DNA of 64,000 bases from Escherichia coli (GTDB lineage: Bacteria; Pseudomonadota; Gammaproteobacteria; Enterobacterales; Enterobacteriaceae), in the NCBI RefSeq assembly GCF_003018255.1, contig NZ_CP027440.1. One strand, 5' to 3'. This document shows positions 39,249 to 41,368 of the stretch, piece after piece. Below the pieces are notes generated by a model. That model was not told the DNA's origin. It ran no database searches and saw only the letters and a program-made list of their open reading frames with translations. Every line of letters begins with the position of its first letter. Position 1 is the stretch's first letter. A program made the translations under genes and the position numbers.

Positions 39249-39780
39249 ATTCCTCTCCCCTCATAGGCGACGAATAGCATTTTGTGTTGAGGATCACAAA
39301 ACGAATAATTGCTGGTCGCCGCGATAAGGTCAGACGAAGACAACAAGGGGGATTCTCACTGTGCTTTACATCAGCGTAGGCCATAGAATGTTGCTTCGTT
39401 GACTGTAATGCCGGGTAAATGAGCATTTTTTGATAGTGCGAAAGAACCCTGCGAGGAAAATAAGCATCTATTATTGTTTGTCATGATGACAAGGCAGGCA
39501 TCAATGAAAGGCTTCCCAATTGCACATATTTTTCACCCTTCAATCCCGCCAATGCACGCAGTGGTTAACAATCACAACAGAAATATTGATTATTGGACGG
39601 TAAAAATTTAGGTTATAACGCCCAAATGATTCAACGATCGGACAATACCTGCGAACTTACAATTAATGAGAGAAATATATGTATAATTACGACCTTTTAA
39701 ATGCAATATAGACTTAATAACTTCTTACAAAGTCTATTATTAATACCGTAGATATTCATCTTACCCTGGGCACCAAAAGC

Positions 39781-39807
39781 AAAAACCCGCCGAAGCGGGT
39801 TTTTACG
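39781..39807 (-). terminator. rnpB Rho-independent terminator
   Basis: Minus-strand aaaaacccgcttcggcgggttttt. Confidence 0.85.
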
Positions 39808-39813
39808 TAAATC

Positions 39814-40190
<377 letters not shown>

Positions 40191-40196
40191 GGCGCG

Positions 40197-40228
40197 CAGT
40201 ATAGAGGGTTTGCGCGCCCTTGTCACCC
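40197..40228 (-). promoter_or_regulatory. rnpB promoter overlapping the 3' end of garK
   Basis: Minus-strand -35 gtgaca (40221-40226) and -10 tatact (40199-40204) placed to start transcription at the rnpB 5' end. Confidence 0.6.
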
Positions 40229-41368
40229 CGCGTTGCGCATTCCAATCGCCAGTGTCGCGGCGATATTACGTGAAGCACGGCAGATATTGTCATAAGCTCC
40301 GCGGAATGCTTCGTCTAACGTACCAATGCTGGTCAATACGCTGAAGACCGCATCAATGCCATGCTGATGTACAACGCCAACATCATTGGTCAGGCTACCC
40401 GCAATGCCAATCACCGGTTTATGGTACTTTTTCGCCACGTTTGCGACGCCAATCGGAACCTTGCCGTGAATACTCTGGCTGTCAATACGCCCTTCACCGG
40501 TGATCACCAGCGTACAATCGTGAATATGTTCCTCCAGATTCAGCGCCGTAGTGACGATTTCAATACCACTTTTCAGTTCTGCACCAAGAAACGCCATCAG
40601 CGCCGCGCCCATACCACCCGCAGCTCCTGCGCCGGGGACATCTTTCACATCAACATGCAGCGCTTTTTTAATGACATCGGCATAGTGAGAGAGGTTATTG
40701 TCCAGCTCGACAATCATCGCTTCACTGGCTCCCTTTTGTGGGCCAAAGATGCGCGATGCGCCGTTATCGCCCACCAGCGGATTGGTGACATCACAAGCGA
40801 CGCGAATGACGCAATCTTTTAAGCGCGGATCGAGGCCGGAAATATCAATATCATTCAGAGTATTAAGACTACCGCCGCCAAAACCAATTTCATTGCCGTT
40901 GGCGTCGCATAATTTCGCCCCCAGCGCCTGTACCATGCCTGCGCCGCCATCATTTGTAGCGCTGCCGCCAATGCCGATAATAATGTTTGTTGCACCGCTC
41001 TCCAGCGCCTGCAGGATTAACTCGCCTGTGCCGCGTGAAGTGGTCACGAGTGGATCGCGTTTTTCCGCAGGTACCAGCTCCAGCCCACTGGCCGCCGCCA
41101 TTTCAATAAATGCGGTTTTGCCATCGCCGGAGATCCCCCAACTGGCATCCACTTTCTCGCCCAGCGGCCCTGTAACCCAGGCGTGACGTTCAGAACCCTG
41201 GGTAGCTGCAATCATCGCTTCCACCGTTCCTTCGCCACCATCGGCAACCGGAACAGAAACGTACTGTGCATCAGGAAAAATTTCCCGAAATCCTTTTTCT
41301 ATCGCCTGCGCAACCTCGCTGGCAGATAAACTTTCTTTATAAGAGTCTGGGGCGATTACGATTTTCAT
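40223..41368 (-). CDS. garK: Glycerate 2-kinase
   Basis: 381 aa from MKIVIAPDSYKESL. Confidence 0.9.
   Translation of the reverse strand: MKIVIAPDSYKESLSASEVAQAIEKGFREIFPDAQYVSVPVADGGEGTVEAMIAATQGSERHAWVTGPLGEKVDASWGISGDGKTAFIEMAAASGLELVPAEKRDPLVTTSRGTGELILQALESGATNIIIGIGGSATNDGGAGMVQALGAKLCDANGNEIGFGGGSLNTLNDIDISGLDPRLKDCVIRVACDVTNPLVGDNGASRIFGPQKGASEAMIVELDNNLSHYADVIKKALHVDVKDVPGAGAAGGMGAALMAFLGAELKSGIEIVTTALNLEEHIHDCTLVITGEGRIDSQSIHGKVPIGVANVAKKYHKPVIGIAGSLTNDVGVVHQHGIDAVFSVLTSIGTLDEAFRGAYDNICRASRNIAATLAIGMRNAG

What the first reader, a model, noticed from the sequence alone, without database searches (positions are those of the whole stretch)
40190..40232. rnpB promoter embedded in the last codons of garK
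The rnpB 5' end at 40190 lies only 32 bp from the garK stop codon (40223-40225). Candidate -10 (tatact) and -35 (gtgaca) elements on the minus strand overlap the garK 3' coding end. Read-through from the gar operon would feed into rnpB, and the garK C-terminal codons are constrained by promoter function.
Basis: partly seen in the sequence, partly recalled or inferred. Interest (0 to 1): 0.3.

Follow-up and report, generated by a model that had tools for sequence, protein, structure and literature searches.

The report
Known rnpB promoter overlapping garK stop
This is the long-known promoter of the E. coli RNase P RNA gene (rnpB); its -35 box happens to contain the stop codon of the upstream gene garK, an arrangement conserved across enteric bacteria but already documented.

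Summary
The window is E. coli. rnpB (Rfam RF00010, 319.7 bits) lies at 39814-40190 on the minus strand, and the garK stop codon TGA is at 40225-40223, 32 nt upstream. A 10-of-12 sigma-70 match sits in exactly the expected place: GTGACA (40226-40221), a 17-nt spacer, TATACT (40203-40198), the G+C-rich discriminator GCGCGCC, then G+1 at 40190. Only 7 matches this good occur in the whole window.

Published 5'-triphosphate mapping (Kim et al. 2012, Table S4) puts the rnpB start on this G, with 1690 reads and an upstream sequence identical to the window. A CRISPRi screen already describes "rnpBp" as an internal promoter of a garP-garL-garR-garK-rnpB unit.

- Only the -35 box overlaps garK, covering the stop codon plus one base of the last codon.
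- The -10 box is intergenic.
- Across 70 sequences, the garK tail codons upstream of -36 show no extra constraint.
- Read-through is possible because there is no terminator, but it is dispensable.

New minor points are that 69 of 78 species keep the exact 32-nt overlap, that spacer block -21..-14 is nearly invariant, and that one natural IS421 insertion duplicates the overlap. Verdict: an ordinary, already known feature.

The parts
40221..40226 (-). -35 hexamer GTGACA of the rnpB proximal promoter; contains the garK stop codon TGA (40225..40223) and the third base of garK codon 381 (40226)
   Evidence: Promoter scan, 10/12 match. TGACA is invariant in 77 aligned species. It is conserved in 8 of the 9 species whose garK stop lies further upstream.
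40204..40220 (-). 17-nt spacer AGGGCGCGCAAACCCTC; the 5' half is variable and the 3' block AAACCCTC (40211..40204, -21..-14) is nearly invariant
   Evidence: Per-column counts over 70 sequences; alignment A1.
40198..40203 (-). -10 hexamer TATACT (intergenic, 20 nt downstream of the garK stop)
   Evidence: Five of six positions are invariant and C(-9) is 69/70.
40191..40197 (-). G+C-rich discriminator GCGCGCC between the -10 and +1
   Evidence: Read from the sequence. CGCGCC: five of six positions invariant, -5 G in 69/70; -7 is G or T. Papers on stringent control of the rnpB promoter are cited.
40190..40190 (-). Transcription start and mature 5' end of M1 RNA (G)
   Evidence: First model position of the Rfam match. 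5'-PPP TSS with 1690 reads at the homologous K-12 base.
39814..40190 (-). rnpB, RNase P RNA class A (M1 RNA, 377 nt)
   Evidence: RF00010, 319.7 bits; RefSeq annotation.
39779..39806 (-). Intrinsic terminator of rnpB (stem-loop plus T run), which ends the 3'-extended precursor
   Evidence: Terminator scan; 'rnpB terminator' is used as such in PMC6610125.
40223..41368 (-). garK, glycerate 2-kinase (381 aa), last gene of garPLRK
   Evidence: Pfam PF02595, 524 bits; RefSeq annotation.

Best explanation
The feature is the proximal sigma-70 promoter of rnpB (called P-1 in the older literature and rnpBp in databases). RNA polymerase holoenzyme binds GTGACA (-36..-31) and TATACT (-13..-8), which are 17 bp apart. 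It starts at the G 7 nt downstream, which is also the mature 5' end of M1 RNA, so no 5' processing is needed. Transcription ends at the intrinsic terminator about 36 nt past the mature 3' end, and the precursor is then trimmed. The G+C-rich discriminator GCGCGCC and the sub-optimal -35 (G instead of T at its first position) put the promoter in the stringently controlled, rRNA/tRNA-like class. The garK stop codon TGA is the TGA inside GTGACA, so the upstream operon ends inside the promoter with no terminator between them. gar transcripts can therefore run into rnpB, but rnpB expression does not depend on this.

Shown here: the positions, the conservation, the mapped start, and the dispensability of upstream transcription. 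Taken from literature titles and citing sentences: stringent control and the role of the -35. Inferred: the kinetic role of the conserved spacer block.
For: - Position and quality of the hexamers and their rarity in the window.
- A full-length RNase P RNA starts 7 nt after the -10.
- A 5'-triphosphate TSS with 1690 reads falls on exactly this base in K-12, with identical upstream sequence. It is confirmed by RegulonDB pyrosequencing, and a TSS is also detected for K. pneumoniae rnpB.
- In the CRISPRi screen, sgRNAs on rnpBp or rnpB give a fitness defect while sgRNAs on garK/R/L/P do not.
- Comparative data: 78 of 80 species loci carry rnpB directly after garK, and the other two contigs end too early to tell. 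TGACA, (A)AACCCTCTATACT, CGCGCC and +1 are invariant or nearly so, while neighbouring spacer and codon positions vary freely.
- In 8 of the 9 species whose garK stop lies 7-47 nt further upstream, GTGACA-N17-TATACT is still intact. The hexamer is therefore conserved as a promoter element, not as a stop codon.
- In E. coli VG48B2 an IS421 insertion with target duplication GGTGACAAGG leaves only -37..+1 of native sequence in front of rnpB, yet the -35/-10 are kept intact.
- The 80-bp region is at least 99% identical in 5020 of 5425 E. coli genomes.
- Literature on stringent control: Jung & Lee 1997 and Park et al. 2002 are cited. PMC3152329 cites Park et al. for sub-optimal -35 elements contributing to negative stringent regulation.
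Against: Nothing found contradicts it. Limits:
- The primary papers on the promoter (Motamedi 1984, Jung & Lee 1997, Park 2002, Ko 2008) are not in the held library. Their content is known to me only through titles, citing sentences and memory.
- The TSS data are for K-12, not this strain, although the sequence from -50 to +1 is identical.
- No assay here shows ppGpp/DksA sensitivity.
Confidence: 0.96

Rival explanations
1. rnpB is mainly made by read-through from the gar operon or from promoters inside garK. The mature 5' end would then be produced by processing, and the hexamers would be incidental.
For: There is no terminator-like site between garK and rnpB. [quoted passage not shown] 'Tandem promoters' upstream of rnpB were reported by Motamedi et al. 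1984 (title only). A promoter-like site lies inside garK at 40410..40382.
Against: The 5' end is recovered by 5'-triphosphate enrichment with 1690 reads. CRISPRi on garK/R/L/P has no fitness cost while rnpBp is essential. The IS421 insertion separates garK from rnpB in a viable strain. The hexamers are invariant across 77 species.
Confidence: 0.03
2. GTGACA is conserved because it carries the garK stop codon and C-terminal glycine. This would be a coding constraint, not promoter function.
For: In 70/70 sequences with the 32-nt gap the stop is the TGA within the hexamer, and codon 381 is nearly always GGN.
Against: In Atlantibacter, Cedecea and Buttiauxella loci the garK stop (TAA, or another TGA) lies 7-47 nt upstream, yet GTGACA is still present 17 nt from TATACT. 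C(-32) and A(-31) lie beyond the stop codon and are also invariant. The synonymous third base of codon 381 is restricted to G or A.
Confidence: 0.02
3. The dyad GGCGCGCA (40218..40211) / TGCGCGCC (40198..40191) flanking the -10 forms a functional RNA hairpin in garK-rnpB read-through transcripts. It could act as a processing or decay signal that defines the fate of upstream transcripts.
For: There are 8 perfect pairs in the window and they appear in the MFE fold. In-register pairing across species is 75% of cells, against 24-51% when the partner is slid. One E. albertii sequence has a double change, U-A for C-G.
Against: There is no covariation beyond shuffles (score 0.076 vs 0.076; 264/500 shuffles reach it). 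The 3' arm is the invariant discriminator, so pairing may simply reflect a G+C-rich spacer. A quarter of cells are unpaired. The fold energy of the region is not unusual (z = -0.5). The structure was derived from one of the aligned sequences, which inflates the in-register figure.
Confidence: 0.05

Closest known systems
E. coli K-12 rnpB proximal promoter (P-1 / rnpBp), as studied by Motamedi et al. 1984, Jung & Lee 1997 and Park et al. 2002, and mapped genome-wide by Kim et al. 2012
   Same: The sequence from -50 to +1 is identical to K-12. The start base is the same, as are the neighbouring genes garK and rnpB.
   Different: Nothing of substance. The window strain differs from K-12 by 21 substitutions over garK+rnpB, none of them in the promoter core.
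Stringently controlled stable-RNA promoters (rrn P1, tRNA promoters)
   Same: Sigma-70 dependent, with a G+C-rich discriminator, a non-consensus -35, no TGn extended -10, and a stable RNA as product. The spacer ends in a C-rich stretch before the -10; from memory, rrnB P1 has AACTCCCTATAAT.
   Different: The spacer is 17 bp rather than the 16 bp of rrn P1. No A+T-rich UP element is visible: -40..-60 is garK coding sequence, G+C-rich and variable. ppGpp/DksA sensitivity was not tested here.
Internal (intra-operonic) promoters overlapping the 3' end of an upstream gene
   Same: The promoter lies at the end of the upstream operon with no terminator between, and it uncouples an essential downstream gene from a conditionally expressed operon.
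   Different: The overlap is minimal, at 4 nt of the garK CDS (stop codon plus one base). Most described internal promoters lie well inside the upstream coding sequence.

Membership tests
Sigma-70 (housekeeping) promoter | -35 and -10 hexamers resembling TTGACA / TATAAT | tested here: met
   GTGACA (5/6) and TATACT (5/6), 10/12 in all. Only 7 such sites occur in 128 kb of scanned strand.
Sigma-70 (housekeeping) promoter | Spacer of 16-18 bp and a start 5-9 nt downstream of the -10 | tested here: met
   The spacer is 17 bp. G+1 lies 7 nt after the -10 and coincides with Rfam model position 1.
Sigma-70 (housekeeping) promoter | Experimentally mapped primary (5'-triphosphate) transcript end at the predicted start | tested here: met
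   Kim et al. 2012 Table S4: TSS 3268614(-), 1690 reads, identical upstream sequence. Table S2: found by 5'-PPP enrichment and by RegulonDB pyrosequencing. The data are for K-12, not the window strain.
Sigma-70 (housekeeping) promoter | Loss of function when the promoter is blocked | tested here: met
   From the literature only: the CRISPRi screen reports a fitness defect for sgRNAs on rnpBp but not on garK/R/L/P.
Stringently controlled (ppGpp/DksA-repressed) stable-RNA promoter | G+C-rich discriminator between the -10 and +1 | tested here: met
   GCGCGCC at 40197..40191. CGCGCC is invariant or nearly so (-5 G 69/70) in 70 sequences.
Stringently controlled (ppGpp/DksA-repressed) stable-RNA promoter | Transcription falls on amino-acid starvation / ppGpp rise; short-lived open complex | not testable with these tools
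   Only the titles of Jung & Lee 1997 and Park et al. 2002 and a citing sentence in PMC3152329 were reachable.
Stringently controlled (ppGpp/DksA-repressed) stable-RNA promoter | Sub-optimal -35 maintained by selection | tested here: met
   Position -36 is G (70) or A (7) in 77 species and never the consensus T, although T would be synonymous in garK codon 381. This is consistent with the feature but is not proof of selection against T.
   The -10 is intergenic. The -35 overlaps only the stop codon plus 1 nt. Codons 372-380 show no excess conservation.

The most novel reading that the evidence does not exclude
The nearly invariant spacer block AAACCCTC (-21..-14, window 40211..40204) is conserved in 77 Enterobacteriaceae species while the adjacent spacer positions -30..-22 vary freely. 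It could be an undescribed functional element of the rnpB promoter. One possibility is a spacer contact that tunes open-complex lifetime, or a site for an unknown regulator. Another is an RNA-level signal governing the fate of gar-rnpB read-through transcripts. The lock of the garK stop codon into the -35 box, kept in 69 of 78 species and preserved even by an IS421 target duplication, would then be part of a selected coupling between the gar operon and RNase P RNA synthesis rather than an accident of compaction.
Probability: 0.12. Interest if true: 0.35.

Novelty: already known. Interest (0 to 1): 0.1.

Why it matters
The finding matters little beyond annotation. It confirms that an essential ribozyme gene is driven by its own strong promoter, placed flush against a conditionally expressed sugar-acid operon. 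This is a textbook example of how compact bacterial genomes share bases between a stop codon and a -35 box. The comparative data give a clean illustration that a promoter can freeze a stop-codon choice and one synonymous site without constraining the rest of the protein tail. They also flag a conserved spacer block that promoter specialists might want to mutate.

Tried and rejected
1. Primary papers. Motamedi 1984 (PMC345347) and Thomason 2015 (PMC4288677) are not held. The other classical rnpB promoter papers, and Ko 2008, turned up only as references in the papers held, not as texts.
2. Cappable-seq supplements (PMC4782308) have no entry for rnpB or its coordinates in the held text.
3. TSSs inside garK or at garP were sought in Kim et al. 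Table S1. That file is truncated, and only orthology rows were found. The 'tandem upstream promoters' could therefore not be placed.
4. Conserved RNA hairpin around the -10: tested and not supported.
5. I suspected a divergent garK allele, because the search for related loci reported 94% identity to E. coli representatives. This was rejected: the window differs from K-12 by 21 nt and 4 aa over garK+rnpB.
6. UP element: -40..-60 is G+C-rich coding sequence and variable between species, so none is proposed.
7. Several review and methods papers mentioning rnpB gave nothing on the promoter itself.

Full report
**What is there.** The window is Escherichia coli chromosome. The 1-kb stretch around the finding is 100% identical to strain DETEC-S792 and is present in 5425 of 5426 complete E. 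coli genomes.
- A full-length class A RNase P RNA (RF00010, 319.7 bits, E 9e-105, model positions 1-367) occupies 39814-40190 on the minus strand.
- The ORF upstream on the same strand ends with TGA at 40225..40223. It is glycerate 2-kinase GarK (Pfam PF02595, 524 bits; RefSeq annotation).
- garK is the last gene of garP-garL-garR-garK.

**The promoter.** Read on the minus strand, the sequence is GGG-GTGACA-AGGGCGCGCAAACCCTC-TATACT-GCGCGCC-G(+1)AAGCTGACC.
- The consensus scan reports GTGACA (40226..40221), a 17-nt spacer and TATACT (40203..40198). This is a 10/12 match and the best in the 2.1 kb scanned.
- My own scan of the whole 64-kb window found only seven sites of this quality on both strands. 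A chance site ending 5-9 nt before the rnpB 5' end is expected about 3e-4 times.
- The -10 is followed by the G+C-rich heptamer GCGCGCC and then the G that is both Rfam model position 1 and the annotated 5' end.

Kim et al. 2012 (PLoS Genet, PMC3415461) mapped primary 5' ends in K-12 by 5'-triphosphate enrichment.
- Table S4 lists NC_000913 3268614, minus strand, 1690 reads, b3123 rnpB, distance 0. The 51-nt upstream sequence is ATGCGCAACGCGGGGTGACAAGGGCGCGCAAACCCTCTATACTGCGCGCCG. It is identical to window 40240..40190.
- Table S2 shows the rnpB start detected by their method and by RegulonDB pyrosequencing, without the marks used for internal or upstream starts.
- Table S3 records a TSS for K. 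pneumoniae rnpB too.
- A genome-wide CRISPRi study (bioRxiv 10.1101/2020.03.04.975888) uses this very locus as its example of an intra-operonic promoter. [quoted passage not shown]
- Dedicated studies of the promoter exist: Motamedi et al. [quoted passage not shown] I could see them only as references. I also saw one citing sentence stating that sub-optimal -35 elements contribute to negative stringent regulation.

The feature is therefore already known.

**How far does the promoter overlap garK?** Much less than the title suggests.
- The -10 hexamer lies 20 nt downstream of the stop codon.
- The -35 hexamer shares four bases with the garK CDS: the third base of codon 381 (G, 40226) and the stop codon TGA (40225..40223).

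**Comparative test.** A scan of one genome per species returned 80 Enterobacteriaceae loci with garK.
- In 78 of them rnpB follows directly; the other two contigs end too early.
- In 69 loci plus the window, the stop is TGA and the gap is exactly 32 nt. This group includes Escherichia, Salmonella, Citrobacter, Klebsiella, Enterobacter, Kosakonia, Kluyvera and others.
- In nine loci the garK stop lies further upstream, giving gaps of 39 to 79 nt. These are Atlantibacter, one 'C. freundii' record, Cedecea, Buttiauxella and Siccibacter. It is TAA in eight of them and another TGA in the ninth.
- Eight of those nine still have GTGACA-N17-TATACT. This natural experiment shows the hexamer is conserved as a promoter element and not because it carries the stop.

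Per-column counts over the 70 sequences with the 32-nt gap:

| Positions | Content | Conservation |
|---|---|---|
| -35..-31 | TGACA | invariant |
| -36 | G | G 63, A 7 |
| -30..-22 | spacer, 5' half | variable (entropy 0.7-1.7 bits) |
| -21..-8 | AAACCCTCTATACT | invariant or nearly so |
| -7 | G or T | variable |
| -6..-1 and +1..+20 | CGCGCC, then rnpB | invariant, except -5 (G in 69 of 70) |

For garK itself, third-codon-position entropy is 1.19 bits in codons 372-380, against 1.21 for the whole gene. First and second positions there are more variable (0.69/0.62) than the gene mean (0.29/0.19). The tail of GarK is thus less constrained than the rest of the protein, and there is no sign of promoter or UP-element constraint upstream of -36. 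The only coding positions visibly frozen by the promoter are two:
- the stop codon choice (TGA);
- the synonymous third base of Gly381, which is never T or C although GGT and GGC would be silent.

That T, the consensus base, is never seen at -36 in 77 species fits the reported role of the sub-optimal -35 in stringent control. This link is an inference.

**Read-through.** No terminator-like site lies between garK and rnpB; the next one on this strand is the rnpB terminator at 39806..39779. So gar transcripts can run into rnpB, and the literature lists that unit. Read-through is nevertheless dispensable:
- the CRISPRi result above;
- E. coli VG48B2, which carries an IS421 element of about 1.3 kb inserted exactly in the overlap.

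The junctions in VG48B2 read ...GCGGGGTGACAAGG|CATAAGCGC... and ...GCGCTTATG|GGTGACAAGGGCGCGC.... A 10-bp target duplication GGTGACAAGG therefore leaves garK with its TGA and leaves rnpB with an intact -35, spacer and -10. Native sequence upstream of -37 is replaced by the IS end. From memory, Ko et al. 2008 reported that transcripts from upstream promoters are degraded by RNase E rather than matured. I could not read that paper.

**Dyad symmetry.** The spacer and discriminator form an 8-bp inverted repeat, GGCGCGCA / TGCGCGCC, around the -10, and it appears in the minimum-energy fold of a read-through RNA. I tested whether it is a conserved RNA hairpin.
- In-register pairing is 75% of cells, against 24-51% when the partner is slid.
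- There is no covariation above shuffles.
- The 3' arm is the invariant discriminator.
- A quarter of cells are unpaired.
- The region's fold energy is ordinary (z = -0.5).

I do not regard the hairpin as supported.

**Mechanism, with confidence.** This is a sigma-70 promoter that initiates at the mature 5' G of M1 RNA, terminates at the intrinsic terminator and is followed by 3' trimming. Its G+C-rich discriminator and sub-optimal -35 place it among stringently controlled stable-RNA promoters.
- Shown: positions, start site, conservation, independence from upstream transcription.
- From the literature only: stringent control.
- Confidence that this is the functional rnpB promoter: about 0.96.

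**Novelty and score.** The promoter, its start and its position at the end of the gar operon are all documented, so the finding is already known and of low interest (0.1). Small additions from this work:
- the depth of conservation of the stop/-35 overlap;
- the one constrained synonymous site;
- the nearly invariant spacer block AAACCCTC (-21..-14), which I cannot explain and which may be worth a mutational test;
- the IS421 natural experiment.

Noticed in passing
L083 1621-1740 and 2941-3060 (E. coli VG48B2, NZ_CP128584.1); homologous to window 40218-40227: An IS421 (IS4-like) element is inserted exactly at the garK-stop/-35 overlap. A 10-bp target duplication GGTGACAAGG preserves both the garK TGA and an intact rnpB -35/-10. 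Five of 5425 genomes lack full-length coverage of the 80-bp query, and only this one was inspected.
   Followed up: partly
window 40204-40211 (minus strand, -21..-14): The spacer block AAACCCTC is invariant or nearly invariant in 77 Enterobacteriaceae species, while the 5' half of the spacer varies freely. No explanation was established. From memory it resembles the C-rich end of the rrnB P1 spacer.
   Followed up: partly
L076 2665-2716 (Siccibacter turicensis): The -10 and discriminator are conserved, but TGACAA sits only 5 nt from the -10, as if 12 nt of spacer were deleted. A different -35 candidate (TTGCAA, 18-nt spacer) lies upstream. This is possibly a rebuilt promoter.
   Followed up: no
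window 40382-40410 (minus strand, inside garK): A promoter-like site TTGGCA-17-AATGAT (9/12) lies about 190 nt upstream of rnpB. It may correspond to one of the 'tandem promoters' of Motamedi et al. 1984. No TSS data could be retrieved for it.
   Followed up: no
window ~39500-39700 (between tdcR and rnpB): In the identical RefSeq record, only two short pseudogene fragments lie between tdcR and rnpB. VG48B2 carries yhaB and yhaC there. The window strain therefore appears to have lost yhaBC.
   Followed up: no
window 39700-40700 vs E. coli genomes: The 1-kb query gave up to 7 places per genome (8192 places in 5425 genomes), whereas the 80-bp promoter query gave 1-2. This suggests a dispersed repeat in the part of the 1-kb query outside the 80-bp promoter stretch. 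I suspect, but did not check, the 39700-39813 stretch downstream of rnpB.
   Followed up: no
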